From an uncultured Sphingorhabdus sp. (GTDB taxonomy: Bacteria > Pseudomonadota > Alphaproteobacteria > Sphingomonadales > Sphingomonadaceae), in the NCBI GenBank assembly GCA_963508315.1, contig CAUOWK010000001.1, forward strand, positions 496,930 to 560,929: DNA of 64,000 nucleotides, given 5' to 3'. A program made the position numbers and the translations under genes. This document shows, one piece after another, positions 17,101 to 24,015 of this stretch. Position 1 is the first letter of the stretch. Every line of letters begins with the position of its first letter. The notes beneath the pieces are model-generated. The model was not told the DNA's origin. It saw nothing but the letters and a program-made list of their open reading frames with translations, and searched no databases.

Positions 17101-17154
17101 TGGTGCGGGCGGCGGGAATCGAACCCGCACCCCTCTCGGAACGGGATTTTGAGT
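17101..17154 (-). tRNA. 3' half of tRNA-Leu(CAA): att-site remnant, not an intact tRNA
   Basis: Reverse complement ACTCAAAATCCCGTTCCGAGAGGGGTGCGGGTTCGATTCCCGCCGCCCGCACCA has anticodon loop, long variable arm, T-arm and CCA; tRNA similarity stops at the anticodon loop. Confidence 0.85.
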
Positions 17155-17213
17155 GGGACGAGACTTCCGTAAGTATCTGTATATGAAAGATTTAATTTGG
17201 TCAAGCCAGAAAC

Positions 17214-17234
17214 TGTGTAAGGTTTTGTGTAAGG
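17214..17234 (+). repeat. Tandem TGTGTAAGG x2 (12-bp period), candidate integrase arm-type sites
   Basis: TGTGTAAGG at 17214-17222 and 17226-17234, 60 bp from the tRNA-Leu remnant. Confidence 0.65.
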
Positions 17235-17340
17235 TTAACCTCGATACTCGGCATCCTCTCGGAGCCGTACGTCCGCCGCCGCTACGCCGAGGAACTAGAA
17301 AAGGCGCAGCGCGAGCTGTTCGGCGAGACGTAGGCCCGGC

Positions 17341-18750
17341 TTATTTCTGCACCTGTATTACCGGCCCCAATGAAACAGGATCGCCGGAGGCGATGACCAG
17401 ATAACGCCGCTGATCGGGTCCGGCGTCGGACACGAGCTGGCGGATGGGTCCGATCGCGTTGACGATCGCGCTGCCGGCAGGGTTGGTCATGAATTTGGCG
17501 AGCGGCTGGATCGGACCCTTGCCGTCCGGGCTTGAGGCAAGGCCAAGGACGAACGGCATCTTCGGAGCAAGCCCGGCAACTGCTGCCTGCAGGATCTGGA
17601 CCTGGCCCTGATCGAACAGTGTCACTTGGCTTTGGCCCGTGCCCTTGAGCGTCAATTGGACTTTCTTGCCGGCCTCAGCAAGCGGTACGAGGTTGGCCGT
17701 GCCGTCGCCGTTCGGCACGGCACCAGGGACATAAGCGACGCCTTGTGGCCCCTGACCGATCGGGATCGTGGCAATTACATTGTTAGTCAGCGTGTCGATC
17801 GCGGCGACCGCGTCGGCATTCTCGAGCCCGACATAGATACGCGTGCCATCGCCCGAAGGCCACAGACCATGCGGCAGCGCCCCGACCGGGATGCTCGCAA
17901 CCTGCGCGAAGTCGCTCGTGCGGAACACCTTCACGACATTCTCGGTGCCCACCGTCACATAGGCGAACTGGCCGTTCTTGTTGCGAACGATGTTGACGTG
18001 GTTGGTGATCGGTCCGGTGTCGATCGTCTTGAGCACGGCAAACGGCGGTTTCGCGTCGAACACCATCGTCTTGCCAACGTCCTTCAGCGTCAGCCATACC
18101 TGTTTGCCGTCTGGAGTCGCCGCGATGTCGGGACAGAACGGACTCGCCTGCTTCACGCGACCGACAATCTGTTTCGACATAGTGTCGATCACGACAGTCT
18201 CGGGCGAGAAGCTTGAGCAGACGTAGCCGTACTTCCCATCGGGCGAGAAGATCGTCATGCCCGGCCCGTTCGGAACCGTTACCCGCCCGGTTTCTTTGTA
18301 GGTCGTAGCGTCGAGCACGGCGATGTAATCCTCGCCGCGAATGCTGACCCAGACTTCTTTGCCGTCGGGATGGAAAAATGCCTCGTGAGGGCTACGTCCA
18401 ACATAAGTGGTGTGTTTGACCGTATTGGTCGCAGTATCGATGAACGTTACCGAGTTCGATCCGATCGAGATCACGGCCAGCGTTGCATGATCAGGCGAAA
18501 AGCCCATGCCGTGCACGAGCAACTGTCCTTTGTAGAGTGGGCTGAGATTGGCAGGAGTCTGGTCGCCGAGCTTTATGACCCCGAGCAAGCTGTTGGTCGC
18601 AGGGTCGATCACCGACACAGTGTTCGAGAATTGGTCCGACGTATAGAGCCGGTCCCTACTGCTAACCGGTATGTCCGGTTGCGCGTTCGGAACTTGTTGA
18701 GCGGTTGCAGGCGCGGCGAGGATTAGCGCTATCAGGGTCAGACGTTTCAT
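17341..18750 (-). CDS. Secreted YncE/YVTN-type beta-propeller protein
   Basis: Signal peptide MKRLTLIALILAAPATA; repeated NTVSVID / VAAIDT / PHG.(W/G)..P.G blade motifs. Confidence 0.85.
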   Translation of the reverse strand: MKRLTLIALILAAPATAQQVPNAQPDIPVSSRDRLYTSDQFSNTVSVIDPATNSLLGVIKLGDQTPANLSPLYKGQLLVHGMGFSPDHATLAVISIGSNSVTFIDTATNTVKHTTYVGRSPHEAFFHPDGKEVWVSIRGEDYIAVLDATTYKETGRVTVPNGPGMTIFSPDGKYGYVCSSFSPETVVIDTMSKQIVGRVKQASPFCPDIAATPDGKQVWLTLKDVGKTMVFDAKPPFAVLKTIDTGPITNHVNIVRNKNGQFAYVTVGTENVVKVFRTSDFAQVASIPVGALPHGLWPSGDGTRIYVGLENADAVAAIDTLTNNVIATIPIGQGPQGVAYVPGAVPNGDGTANLVPLAEAGKKVQLTLKGTGQSQVTLFDQGQVQILQAAVAGLAPKMPFVLGLASSPDGKGPIQPLAKFMTNPAGSAIVNAIGPIRQLVSDAGPDQRRYLVIASGDPVSLGPVIQVQK

Positions 18751-18770
18751 TTTCGTATTCCTATCGAGGT

Positions 18771-19109
18771 TTAATTTTTCGGCGTGCCATTCTTTTCGGC
18801 CAGGATGCCTTGCATCACCATGATCTCCTGGCGCTGCTCGACGATAATGCCTTGCGCCAGACGGCGGAGGCGTTCGTCCTTGCCGTATTTCAGTTCGGCT
18901 TCGGCCATCTCGACCGCGCCTTGATGGTGCGGGATCATCATCGCGGCGAAGTCGCGATCGGGGTCGCCGCTCGGCGCGACCATCATCGCAGCGTGCATCC
19001 GTGCCATCGATCCGCGCATGGCCTCGGCGAAGCTATCTACCTGCGCCGCACCGGCGCAGGTGGAGGCAAGGATCAATCCAGCGGCCAACGCCGCCCTGTG
19101 CTTCTTCAC
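18771..19109 (-). CDS. DUF305 (CopM-like) Met/His-rich periplasmic protein
   Basis: Signal peptide; DRDFAAMMIPHHQGAVEMA..EL motif. Confidence 0.88.
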   Translation of the reverse strand: MKKHRAALAAGLILASTCAGAAQVDSFAEAMRGSMARMHAAMMVAPSGDPDRDFAAMMIPHHQGAVEMAEAELKYGKDERLRRLAQGIIVEQRQEIMVMQGILAEKNGTPKN

Positions 19110-23235: not shown

Positions 23236-23248
23236 GGGAAACAAGAAC

Positions 23249-23722
23249 ATGAAGATTCCCTCGCTCGGAACGCTCTCGTTTGCCGCCGTTGGCGTCGCTG
23301 CTGTCGTGCTGATCGCGATCGGTGCCCCGCATGATCGCCCTGCCCCGACACCGGTCGCTACCTCCAGCCCCAGCCCCTCAAGCGTTTCGGCGGGCGGCTT
23401 CACGCTTGTGTCGGACACAGTCGAGCTGCCGATCGACGACCAGCAATATCCCGACGGTCCCCATGCCGACGTGATCAACGCCAATTGCACCGCCTGTCAT
23501 TCGGCTTCCATGGCGCTGAACCAGCCGCCTCTCTCCGCCGACCAATGGAAGGCCGAGGTCAGCAAGATGCGTGACACCTACAAGGCACCCGTGCCAGCGT
23601 CAGCCATGCCAGACATCGTCGCTTATCTGACGGCGATGAGCGCTAAGCAAAGCGGTTCGGTGTCCAATAAGGCGCCGTCGAAGCAGAAGGCCGCCGCAAG
23701 TGATTCCGGCGGTACCGGGTGA
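23249..23722 (+). CDS. Small c-type cytochrome (SorB-like)
   Basis: Single CTACH heme motif; WKAEVSKM..TYKAP; follows the molybdoenzyme gene. Confidence 0.85.
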   Translation: MKIPSLGTLSFAAVGVAAVVLIAIGAPHDRPAPTPVATSSPSPSSVSAGGFTLVSDTVELPIDDQQYPDGPHADVINANCTACHSASMALNQPPLSADQWKAEVSKMRDTYKAPVPASAMPDIVAYLTAMSAKQSGSVSNKAPSKQKAAASDSGGTG

Positions 23723-23839
23723 TCGGGTCGGCATGAGCAGTCTTGATATCGAGCCGTATGGTGGGGAATCGGCCGTATTATGACGGTCTCCACCGAAGCT
23801 TACCGGCTGGCGCGACCTATGAGCGGTCGCCTTTCACGA

Positions 23840-23893
23840 TGGTGCGGGCGGTGGGAATCGAACCCACACTCCTTGCGGAACGGCATTTTCAGT
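23840..23893 (-). tRNA. Second tRNA-Leu-type 3' half: att-site remnant
   Basis: Reverse complement ACTGAAAATGCCGTTCCGCAAGGAGTGTGGGTTCGATTCCCACCGCCCGCACCA; long variable arm and intact T-arm; 5' half absent; followed by the same GGGACGAGAC as the first remnant. Confidence 0.85.
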
Positions 23894-23996
23894 GGGACGA
23901 GACCACCGCTGATTATCGCAGAAATCAGCCTTCCAAACGACTGTGTTCTCGAGCCTTCGGGAAGGCAACGGAAATCAGCCGCTTTTCAAACGCAAA

Positions 23997-24015
23997 TGTG
24001 TAAGCGTTTGTGTAA
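23997..24015 (+). repeat. Tandem TGTGTAA x2 (12-bp period), candidate arm-type sites
   Basis: TGTGTAAG at 23997-24004 and TGTGTAA at 24009-24015. Confidence 0.6.

What the first reader, a model, noticed from the sequence alone, without database searches (positions are those of the whole stretch)
17101..24015. Two different tRNA-Leu 3' halves with matching element-side arms delimit a cargo cassette: record of serial att-site accretion
Seen: 54-nt tRNA 3' halves at 17101-17154 and 23840-23893, in the same orientation and both cut at the anticodon loop. Both are followed by GGGACGAGAC and then paired TGTGTAA repeats with a 12-bp period. They differ by compensatory changes (T-stem GCGGG/CCCGC vs GTGGG/CCCAC; variable loop GAGA vs GCAA), so they derive from different functional tRNA alleles rather than from decay of one copy. 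There is no intact tRNA-Leu in the window, and the adjacent integrase is paired with a tRNA-Pro end. Inference: an ancestor that integrated at tRNA-Leu in different hosts captured flanking DNA in blocks, then switched target or was subsumed. The 6.7-kb block between the scars might still be excisable in trans.
Basis: partly seen in the sequence, partly recalled or inferred. Interest (0 to 1): 0.72.

Follow-up and report, generated by a model that had tools for sequence, protein, structure and literature searches.

The report
Nested tRNA-Leu integration scars inside ICE
The two half tRNA-Leu genes are fossil junctions left when mobile elements that cut tRNA-Leu(CAA) in its anticodon loop landed in tRNA-Leu genes carried by other mobile elements. 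They bracket a 6.7-kb cargo block inside a conjugative element that now uses a different integrase and sits at tRNA-Pro.

Summary
Observation confirmed. Two 54-nt tRNA-Leu(CAA) 3' halves lie on the minus strand at 17101-17154 and 23840-23893. Each is preceded by GTCTCGTCCC and two TGTGTAA repeats 12 bp apart.

Both lie inside a ~73-kb conjugative element (ICE), one of two inserted in tandem at tRNA-Pro(GGG). The neighbouring integrase belongs to a family that always has a tRNA 3'-end core upstream of the gene. It is not the enzyme for the Leu sites.

Related sphingomonad ICEs explain the halves. They insert into the host tRNA-Leu(CAA) anticodon loop through a ~10-nt common core, leave the tRNA split, and carry their own complete tRNA-Leu(CAA), followed by a hairpin-rich flank and a Fic gene. 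Half 1 with its flank and Fic gene is the 3' part of such an element-borne tRNA. The arms are canonical right ends of Leu-type elements.

Six relatives have a single junction; the window has an extra 6.7-kb block, bounded at the anticodon loop.

"Serial accretion" is therefore supported, but for half 1 "captured host flanks" is not. Excision now looks unlikely: the genome has no Leu-type integrase and the two cores differ by one base.

This scan has already met the split-tRNA-plus-replacement design on other DNA (e1-5191822, e1-738550, e1-1181970).

The parts
15588..16709 (-). DUF4172-Fic gene. ICE backbone gene that follows the tRNA-Leu and hairpin flank in this ICE family.
   Evidence: Pfam DUF4172 and Fic. 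85-87% nucleotide identity to the Fic gene downstream of the complete element-borne tRNA-Leu in G315, G199 and G155.
16915..17100 (-). Hairpin-rich flank: four hairpins, most with C-GNAC-G loops. In related ICEs it always follows the element-borne tRNA-Leu(CAA).
   Evidence: Homologous at 74-88% to the flank after complete tRNA-Leu genes in L113, L116, L117 and L120. RNAalifold finds compensatory changes in 15 of 48 pairs. No Rfam family matches.
17101..17154 (-). Half 1: 3' half of an element-borne tRNA-Leu(CAA) (allele GCGGG/GAGA), cut in the anticodon loop. An attR-type junction.
   Evidence: 98% identical to the single site of L016 and L027, which have the same hairpin flank.
17146..17164 (-). 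Core-type site GTCTCGTCCC plus common core (C)ACTCAAAAT of the Leu-type att system.
   Evidence: The same sequence occurs at bona fide attR junctions of G143, G315 and G199, and next to the host 5' half at attL.
17155..17260 (-). Arm 2: AT-rich P arm (right end) of a Leu-type element, with TGTGTAA at 17214 and 17226.
   Evidence: Homologous to the arms at the attR of Leu-type ICEs in G143 and G315 and to L038 and L119. The Leu-type P' arm also carries TTACACA pairs.
17341..23722 (.). Cargo block. Genes: YncE-like beta-propeller (17341-18750, -), DUF305 (18771-19109, -), two ORFs without a family, LysR (19872-20762, +), TDT/SLAC1-type transporter (20759-21910, +), molybdopterin oxidoreductase (21826-23235, +), cytochrome c (23249-23722, +).
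   Evidence: Pfam. The same cluster occurs at 76-80% on 20 or more sphingomonad plasmids, without the arms or halves. GC is 64-65% at 20-23 kb against 56% for the genome. Absent from all 80 related integrase loci.
23723..23839 (-). Private 117-bp flank downstream of half 2. Origin unknown.
   Evidence: No homologue in any fetched locus. The metagenome exact-pattern scan gave only chance hits.
23840..23893 (-). Half 2: 3' half of a second tRNA-Leu(CAA) (allele GTGGG/GCAA) with two private substitutions (anticodon CAA->GAA, stem TCCCG->TGCCG). A decayed attR-type junction.
   Evidence: 51 of 54 positions match the complete tRNA-Leu carried by Leu-type ICEs of four genomes.
23894..24083 (-). Arm 1: second Leu-type P arm (GTCTCGTCCC, with TGTGTAA at 23997 and 24009), contiguous with the integrase-proximal conserved region.
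   Evidence: Present in the same place in L008, L013, L016, L027, L030 and L068. Deleted with different end points in L001, L014, L028, L033 and others.
24084..24323 (-). Conserved non-coding region downstream of the integrase gene ('cn'). Function unknown.
   Evidence: 72-95% nucleotide identity in 77 of 80 relatives, but no conserved reading frame. No Rfam match.
24369..25724 (-). Tyrosine integrase of the ICE (Int_Pro). Not the cognate enzyme for the Leu junctions.
   Evidence: Pfam Phage_integrase. All relatives carry CTGTGYAG arm sites upstream; nearly all also carry a target core there: tRNA-Pro, a tRNA-Gly-like 3' end, or a third target that is not obviously a tRNA end. Only 31% identical to the Leu-type integrase.
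25677..25808 (+). attR of the ICE at tRNA-Pro(GGG): five CTGYGYAG arm sites and the 19-nt core AATCCTGTCGTCCCGACCA (25790-25808).
   Evidence: The 19-mer occurs three times in direct order on contig C1, including once in the intact tRNA-Pro. Four same-genus genomes show the empty site, with tRNA-Pro(GGG) directly next to the GH108 flank.

Best explanation
Window 1-25808 is the integrase-proximal end of a ~73-kb T4SS-type ICE. It is the second of two elements inserted in tandem at tRNA-Pro(GGG).

Related 'Leu-type' elements share the window ICE's backbone but use another tyrosine integrase (Int_Leu, 31% identical). Int_Leu recombines a ~10-nt common core (CACTCAAAAT) in the anticodon loop of tRNA-Leu(CAA). 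The host tRNA is left split into a 5' half at attL and a 3' half at attR. The element supplies a complete tRNA-Leu(CAA) of its own, in the order int_Leu -> tRNA-Leu -> hairpin flank -> Fic -> backbone -> P arm with TTACACA repeats.

Such an element-borne tRNA-Leu is itself an attB. The two halves in the window are attR-type junctions (P arm, GTCTCGTCCC, common core, tRNA 3' half). They were made by Leu-type site-specific recombination on complete tRNA-Leu genes. For half 1 this was the ICE's own tRNA, which is still followed by its hairpin flank and Fic gene.

The 6.7-kb block is the cargo and right end of a small Leu-type element or cassette. Half 2 is the remnant of the tRNA-Leu gene upstream of that cargo. 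That gene was in turn joined to arm 1. Int_Leu, the 5' halves and the P' arms were later lost. The composite now moves, if at all, through Int_Pro at tRNA-Pro.

Shown: the anatomy, the homologies, the presence/absence pattern and the design of the Leu-type elements. Inferred: the order of events, how the left parts were lost, and that the scars are now inert.
For: 1. Context.
- Three direct copies of the tRNA-Pro 19-mer, with the intact tRNA at one end.
- Empty site in four same-genus genomes.
- VirB4, VirB10, VirB11 and T4CP in the same element.

2. Leu-type design, seen in G315, G143, G199 and G155, and with more distant Int_Leu in G330, G258 and G067.
- The host 5' half ends at ...ACTCAAAAT. 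It is followed by int_Leu and a complete tRNA-Leu(CAA), and, in G315, G143, G199, G155 and G330, by the hairpin flank; a Fic gene follows in G315 and G199 (Pfam only for G199).
- In G315, G143 and G199, the far end is a TTACACA arm, GYCTCRYCCCACTCAAAAT and the host 3' half.
- Joining attL and attR restores a valid tRNA-Leu(CAA).
- The element copy is the only intact tRNA-Leu(CAA) found in those four genomes.

3. Half 1 plus hairpin flank plus Fic is homologous to the region from the tRNA 3' half onward in these ICEs, at 75-88%. 8.9 kb of T4SS backbone is 81% identical to G143.

4. Both arms carry the Leu-type core site and TTACACA pairs.

5. Six relatives have arm 1, a single half and the hairpin flank, with no block. 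Other relatives have lost this site through deletions with different end points.

6. The same kind of junction (arm 2 on a tRNA 3' half plus hairpin flank) recurs in L038 and G155:C7.

7. The Int_Pro family always has its own att core upstream of the gene.
Against: - No relative was found with the proposed intermediates. None has a complete tRNA-Leu after int_Pro and the conserved region, and none carries both integrases.
- The 117-bp flank of half 2 has no homologue anywhere. Half 2 could therefore come from a chromosomal or plasmid tRNA-Leu rather than an element-borne one.
- Arm 1 was not found in a sample of 400 Sphingomonadales genomes, so it has never been seen at a bona fide attR on a host chromosome.
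- Extant element-borne tRNA-Leu genes of the closest Leu-type ICEs read ATTCAAAAT, not the core ACTCAAAAT. That should make them poor targets.
- Presence/absence alone cannot tell insertion of the block from its loss in relatives.
Confidence: 0.7

Rival explanations
1. First reader's model. An ancestor integrated at chromosomal tRNA-Leu genes of different hosts and picked up host flanking DNA in blocks by imprecise excision. The halves are displaced host 3' halves, and the block is captured host or plasmid DNA.
For: The half-2 allele also exists as a native tRNA-Leu(CAA) without the hairpin flank (L095, L096 and L098). Its 117-bp flank is unique. The cargo cluster is common on sphingomonad plasmids and is GC-richer than the host.
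Against: The flank of half 1 is ICE backbone, found after complete element-borne tRNA-Leu genes. The other end of the block is a canonical Leu-type right-end arm, so the block lies inside an element. Plasmid copies of the cluster lack the halves and arms.
Confidence: 0.15
2. The paired sites form a live cassette dock. ICE-borne arm-core-half-tRNA sites would be kept as landing pads, and the 6.7-kb block could still be excised or exchanged by an integrase acting in trans, possibly Int_Pro, whose CTGTGTAG arm sites share TGTGTA with the TGTGTAA repeats.
For: Such junctions recur in several ICE lineages. Arm motifs around Int_Pro and the Leu arms are similar. The two sites are in direct orientation.
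Against: The site has been deleted independently several times in relatives. The core of half 2 is mutated (C->G in the common core). No Int_Leu is present in the genome. The att core of the Int_Pro family (AATCC...) is unrelated to the Leu core. A relative whose att core looks like a tRNA-Gly 3' end (L068) has the same arm 1, so the resemblance of GTCTCGTCCC to the tRNA-Pro end is coincidental.
Confidence: 0.1
3. One att site was duplicated within the element and the two copies then diverged.
For: 47 of 54 positions are identical, and GTCTCGTCCC and the TGTGTAA pairs are shared.
Against: The two arms are otherwise non-homologous. The differences include compensatory pairs. Each allele and each arm type occurs on its own in other genomes.
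Confidence: 0.03

Closest known systems
tRNA-dependent lysogeny of actinobacteriophages (Guerrero-Bustamante & Hatfull, mBio 2024, PMC10865867)
   Same: A tyrosine integrase, a common core of only ~10 bp inside a tRNA gene, no rebuilding of the tRNA, and a complete tRNA of the same isotype carried by the element. All were seen here in the Leu-type relatives.
   Different: Here the carriers are conjugative or mobilizable elements, not phages. The window holds only fossil junctions, with no complete element tRNA. The element-borne tRNA has itself been used as a target, giving nested scars.
Site-specific accretion and CIMEs (cis-mobilizable elements) of streptococcal ICEs (reviewed in PMC5704250 and PMC7563491)
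   Same: A cargo segment without integrase or transfer genes, bracketed by directly repeated att-type sites next to an ICE. It is explained by integration into an att site of a resident element followed by decay.
   Different: The target is a tRNA gene carried by the element, not a flanking attL or attR. The bracketing sites belong to a different integrase from the one the ICE now uses. Mobilization is untested and looks unlikely here.
Anticodon-loop class of tRNA integration sites, and tandem island arrays at tRNA genes (Williams 2002, from my own knowledge)
   Same: Crossover in the anticodon loop, displaced 3' halves in direct orientation, and arm-type repeats on the element side.
   Different: Classical elements carry the tRNA 3' half in attP and rebuild the gene. 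These do not. The array lies inside an ICE at another tRNA, with no intact tRNA-Leu at its head.
Tycheposons of Prochlorococcus (bioRxiv 10.1101/2020.12.28.424599)
   Same: Arrays of partial tRNA genes that delimit cargo blocks built up by repeated integration.
   Different: Different integrases and hosts, and chromosomal tRNA targets. No hallmark genes of that family were tested or seen here.

Membership tests
attR-type junction of an anticodon-loop tRNA-integrating element | tRNA fragment runs from the anticodon loop to CCA, with non-tRNA DNA on the 5' side | tested here: met
   Both halves start at the loop and end at CCA. The upstream 5 nt cannot pair as an anticodon stem.
attR-type junction of an anticodon-loop tRNA-integrating element | Element-side arm with repeated arm-type sites and a core-type site, shared with bona fide attR sites | tested here: met
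   TGTGTAA pairs and GTCTCGTCCC. The same motifs occur at attR sites next to host flanks in G143, G315 and G199.
attR-type junction of an anticodon-loop tRNA-integrating element | Cognate integrase and matching attL (5' half or intact tRNA) present | tested here: not met
   No Int_Leu homologue in the genome other than Int_Pro at 30%. No orphan tRNA-Leu 5' half at three or fewer mismatches (two 4-mismatch hits were not examined) and no intact tRNA-Leu nearby.
tRNA-dependent (non-restoring) integration with element-borne replacement tRNA | Short common core; tRNA not rebuilt at attL | tested here: met
   Tested in relatives: the 5' half ends at ACTCAAAAT and is followed by element DNA. Joining the halves restores a tRNA.
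tRNA-dependent (non-restoring) integration with element-borne replacement tRNA | Element carries a complete tRNA of the same isoacceptor | tested here: met
   Met in relatives G315, G143, G199, G155, G330, G258 and G067. In the first four it is the only intact tRNA-Leu(CAA) found. In the window itself only halves remain, so the window element is a derivative, not a working member.
tRNA-dependent (non-restoring) integration with element-borne replacement tRNA | Element tRNA is required for survival of the integrant | not testable with these tools
   Needs genetics.
CIME-like integrase-less cassette | Flanked by directly repeated att-type sites; no integrase or transfer genes inside | tested here: met
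   The genes inside are YncE-like, DUF305, LysR, a TDT transporter, a Mo-oxidoreductase and cytochrome c.
CIME-like integrase-less cassette | Can be excised or mobilized by a related element's integrase | not testable with these tools
The core mismatch (C versus G) and the absence of Int_Leu argue against it in this strain.
T4SS-type ICE integrated at a tRNA gene | Integrase, direct repeats of the tRNA 3' end with an intact tRNA at one end, an empty site in relatives, and T4SS plus coupling protein | tested here: met
   The relaxase was not looked for.

The most novel reading that the evidence does not exclude
Replacement tRNA-Leu genes carried by these ICEs may work as portable attB sites. 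Leu-type elements could then stack inside one another. Int_Leu acting between an attP-like site and the element's own tRNA, about 2 kb away in direct orientation, could delete the integrase module. That would produce integrase-less cargo cassettes bracketed by half-tRNA sites, and would free the backbone to be taken over by another integrase module (tRNA-Pro, a tRNA-Gly-like end, or a third target). The U32 variant (ATTCAAAAT) seen in surviving element tRNAs would then be a self-immunity change. Taken together this would be an integron-like way for ICEs to assemble cassettes and switch targets.
Probability: 0.3. Interest if true: 0.7.

Novelty: new variant of a known kind. Interest (0 to 1): 0.5.

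Why it matters
It turns an odd pair of half tRNA genes into a readable history. It supports the view that the non-restoring "split the tRNA and bring your own" strategy is used by a family of sphingomonad conjugative elements, and not only by the actinobacteriophages in which it has been demonstrated experimentally.

The element-borne tRNA then becomes a target for further insertions. That gives a concrete route by which ICEs could acquire cargo blocks, lose one integrase and be taken over by another.

Practically, half-tRNA scars inside an element do not mark host boundaries. Annotation pipelines that delimit islands by tRNA fragments would cut this ICE in the wrong places.

Tried and rejected
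- **Intact tRNAs in the window.** ARAGORN and Rfam found none.
- **Int_Pro recognising GTCTCGTCCC.** The sequence resembles the tRNA-Pro end TGTCGTCCC. Rejected: the whole Int_Pro family has its core upstream, beginning AATCC, and L068, a relative whose att core looks like a tRNA-Gly 3' end, has the same arm 1 core site.
- **A small gene (excisionase) between the integrase gene and arm 1.** No reading frame is conserved. Nucleotide identity exceeds amino-acid identity in every frame.
- **A donor for half 2 and its flank.** The exact-pattern scan of metagenome contigs gave nine chance hits in coding regions. No homologue was found in any fetched locus.
- **Arm 1 in 400 Sphingomonadales genomes.** Only one 50-nt partial hit.
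- **A dual-integrase intermediate.** No Int_Leu homologue in the 80 Int_Pro-family loci.
- **Plasmid copies of the cargo cluster.** They are not flanked by halves or arms.
- **Known RNA families for the hairpin flank and the conserved non-coding region.** None.
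Full report
**1.

On the minus strand, 17154->17101 and 23893->23840 each read as the 3' 54 nt of a tRNA-Leu(CAA): anticodon loop, long variable arm, T arm, 3' acceptor strand and CCA. The two agree at 47 of 54 positions.

On the element side each is preceded by GTCTCGTCCC. 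On the + strand this is GGGACGAGAC, found only at 17155 and 23894. Each also has two TGTGTAA repeats 12 bp apart. The motif occurs only four times in the window, at 17214, 17226, 23997 and 24009.

ARAGORN and Rfam find no intact tRNA in the window. The host's own tRNA-Leu(CAA), at C4:215715, has a different acceptor stem and matches the halves at only 42 and 39 of 54.

**2. Where the halves lie**

The window is G000:C1:496930-560929. The 19-nt tRNA-Pro(GGG) 3' end at 25790-25808 occurs three times in direct order on C1: inside the intact tRNA-Pro at 369195-369271, at 449595, and here.

In four genomes of the same genus an intact tRNA-Pro(GGG) sits directly next to the homologue of window 25809 onward. 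So ~153 kb has been inserted at this tRNA as two tandem elements.

The second element (C1:449614-522737) includes window 1-25808. It encodes VirB4, VirB10, VirB11 and a coupling protein, so it is an ICE. Both Leu halves lie inside it, 1.9 and 8.6 kb from its integrase end.

**3. The neighbouring integrase is not the enzyme of the Leu sites**

I fetched eighty loci with relatives of the integrase at 24369-25724.
- All that extend far enough upstream carry CTGTGYAG arm sites there.
- Nearly all then carry, ~45 nt further out, a target core after which homology to the flanks stops.
- The closer relatives have a tRNA-Pro core. A more distant clade has a core that looks like the 3' end of tRNA-Gly (assigned from memory and from a similar intact tRNA-Gly in L080). 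A further clade has a third sequence that is not obviously a tRNA end.

The attP of this family therefore lies upstream of the gene, and for the tRNA targets it is of the T-loop/3'-end kind. The resemblance of GTCTCGTCCC to the tRNA-Pro end TGTCGTCCC is coincidental. L068, a relative with the tRNA-Gly-like core, has the same Leu-type core site downstream.

**4. Relatives show three states of the integrase-proximal region**

| State | Loci | Structure |
|---|---|---|
| 1 | L008, L013, L016, L027, L030, L068 | integrase, conserved non-coding stretch, arm 1 (two TTACACA), GYCTCGTCCCACTCAAAAT, one tRNA-Leu 3' half, hairpin flank, Fic |
| 0 | L001, L002, L003, L007, L012, L014, L015, L018, L028, L033 and others | lacks arm 1, the half and the flank, with at least four different deletion end points, so these are independent losses |
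| 2 | the window only | arm 1, half 2, 6.7-kb block, arm 2, half 1, hairpin flank, Fic |

Half 1 and its flank are 96-98% identical to L027. The half-2 allele is the one in L008, L013, L030 and L068, apart from two private substitutions (CAA->GAA, TCCCG->TGCCG).

The halves do not match the host tRNA, and the presence/absence boundaries fall at the scars.

**5. What the halves come from**

I searched 400 Sphingomonadales genomes with half 1, its arm and its flank. In G315, G143, G199 and G155 an intact tRNA-Leu(CAA) is directly followed by the same hairpin flank and preceded by an integrase gene (Int_Leu, 31% identical to the window integrase).

Upstream of that gene lies a tRNA-Leu 5' half that stops at ...ACTCAAAAT. 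At 5.8, 40 and 48 kb downstream in G199, G143 and G315 lies an AT-rich arm with two to four TTACACA repeats. It is followed by GYCTCRYCCCACTCAAAAT, a tRNA-Leu 3' half and host DNA.

Further points:
- Joining the 5' and 3' halves gives a valid tRNA-Leu(CAA) in all three genomes.
- In G199, G143 and G315 the split tRNA is of the GCCCCTG acceptor type, whereas the intact one is of the GCGGGCG type. The intact copy is identical in four genomes of three genera.
- It is the only intact tRNA-Leu(CAA) found in each of them.

These elements therefore recombine through a common core of about 10 nt, do not rebuild the host tRNA, and bring a complete replacement.

The same layout (5' half, Int_Leu, complete tRNA-Leu(CAA)) recurs with Int_Leu of 54-58% identity in G330, G258 and G067. 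Relatives at ~50% identity mostly sit beside an intact tRNA-Met in the classical way.

This is the design described for some actinobacteriophages as tRNA-dependent lysogeny (PMC10865867). I found no paper describing it for ICEs in the library. This scan has reported it before on other DNA, including sphingomonads (e1-5191822, e1-738550, e1-1181970).

**6. Same ICE family**

Downstream of the element-borne tRNA and hairpin flank in G199 lies a DUF4172-Fic gene. It is 87% identical in nucleotides to the window's Fic gene. The G315 and G155:C7 copies are 85-87% identical. 8.9 kb of the G143 element is 81% identical to the T4SS region of the window's ICE.

Half 1, its hairpin flank and the Fic gene are thus the 3' part of what was once the ICE's own complete tRNA-Leu(CAA) gene and its downstream backbone. 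They are not captured host DNA.

**7. Reading the two junctions**

Leu-type attP sites carry no tRNA 3' half. Any arm-core-half junction must therefore have formed on a complete tRNA-Leu gene.

- **Arm 2 (17155-17260)** is homologous to the right-end arms at the attR of the G143 and G315 ICEs. The 17101-17260 junction is therefore the right end of a Leu-type element inserted into the ICE-borne tRNA-Leu.
- **The block** in front of arm 2 is that element's cargo. It holds a YncE-like propeller, DUF305, LysR, a TDT transporter, a molybdopterin oxidoreductase and cytochrome c. GC reaches 64-65%. The cluster is common on sphingomonad plasmids at 76-80%, without arms or halves.
- **Half 2**, at the other end of the block, is the remnant of a second tRNA-Leu gene. 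Most simply it was the small element's own replacement tRNA, and it was in turn joined to arm 1.

Junctions of the same kind (arm 2 on a tRNA 3' half plus hairpin flank) occur in L038 and in G155:C7, so insertion into element-borne tRNA-Leu genes is recurrent.

**8. What is inferred**

Two routes give the present order.
- **(a)** A circular molecule carrying arm 2-core-half 2-flank-block recombined with the state-1 site.
- **(b)** A small Leu-type element integrated there, and Int_Leu then recombined the new attP-like site with the element's own tRNA ~2 kb away. That would delete int_Leu and the 5' half.

I found no intermediate for either route. Presence/absence alone cannot exclude that relatives lost the block.

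The scars look inert for four reasons:
- Int_Leu is absent from the genome.
- No 5' half was found at three or fewer mismatches; two 4-mismatch hits were not examined.
- The site has been deleted repeatedly in relatives.
- The half-2 copy of the common core carries a C->G change that would mismatch half 1 during strand exchange.

The surviving element-borne tRNAs of the closest Leu-type ICEs read ATTCAAAAT instead of the core ACTCAAAAT. This may protect them. It is an inference, and the G330 element does not follow it.

**9. Limits**

- The origin of half 2's 117-bp flank is unknown.
- Arm 1 has not been seen at a bona fide attR on a host chromosome.
- Genome counts come from samples, not from whole groups.

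**10. Verdict**

The source of half 1 is an element-borne tRNA-Leu gene rather than a host att site with captured flanks; the source of half 2 is unresolved. The adjacent integrase is unrelated to the scars. The cassette is most likely a fossil.

This is a new variant of known kinds (tRNA-dependent integration and att-site accretion). It is of moderate interest, because it shows nested use of an element-borne tRNA as a target and an ICE whose integrase module has changed.

Noticed in passing
window 16915-17100 (minus strand); also L113, L116, L117, L119, L120, L008, L013, L016, L027, L030, L038, L068, L089: A ~160-nt flank always follows the element-borne tRNA-Leu(CAA). It folds into four hairpins, most closed by C-GNAC-G loops, and 15 of 48 pairs show compensatory changes. 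No Rfam family matches. It could be an RNA, or a single-strand DNA signal of the ICE.
   Followed up: partly
window 24084-24323: A non-coding stretch just downstream of the integrase gene is conserved at 72-95% nucleotide identity in 77 of 80 relatives, across clades with different target sites. It has no conserved reading frame and no Rfam match.
   Followed up: partly
G000:C1:369195-522737 (window up to 25808): Two elements of ~80 and ~73 kb lie in tandem at tRNA-Pro(GGG), delimited by three identical 19-mers. The first has no homologue of the window integrase. The left part of the second carries cobalamin-salvage genes, an RND efflux pump and a multicopper oxidase.
   Followed up: partly
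L001-L080, ~85-130 nt upstream of the integrase start: The integrase family has switched target. The upstream core looks like a tRNA-Pro 3' end, a tRNA-Gly 3' end (AATCCCTTCACCCGCTCCA), or a third sequence (CTCATCCTGAACTTGTTTCAGGATC), clade by clade. The CTGTGYAG arm sites stay the same throughout.
   Followed up: partly
L009 11620-12180 (and L010): Here arm 1 and its core are joined to a non-tRNA sequence instead of a tRNA-Leu half. About 330 bp further on come CTACACAG sites and a 46-nt tRNA-Pro(GGG) 3' part that begins in the anticodon loop. So the 2.2-kb integrase module is bracketed by two tRNA-Pro fragments.
   Followed up: no
L118 (G395:C5) 6330-6670; L119 (G155:C7) 7540-9700: Other genomes hold short arrays of tRNA-Leu halves. 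In one, an attR is followed 150 nt later by a degenerate complete tRNA-Leu. In another, a half is fused to a truncated helicase gene 2 kb from an arm 2-half-hairpin junction.
   Followed up: no
L113, L116, L117, L120 versus their attL and attR sites: The replacement tRNA-Leu of the closest Leu-type ICEs has U32 (ATTCAAAAT), whereas the recombined core is ACTCAAAAT. This may be self-immunity of the element's own tRNA. The G330 element keeps ACTCAAAAT.
   Followed up: partly
L174, L176, L178, L180, L181, L183, L184, L188, L189: Integrases ~50% identical to Int_Leu sit next to an intact tRNA-Met(CAT) in the classical tRNA-then-integrase arrangement. This is the likely ancestral state of the non-restoring Leu subfamily.
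   Followed up: no
window 11919-16709: An MmeI-like type IIL restriction-modification gene (1203 aa) and the Fic gene lie directly behind the hairpin flank. L001 shares window 7080-16785 at 90%, so this defence cluster is part of the ICE lineage.
   Followed up: no
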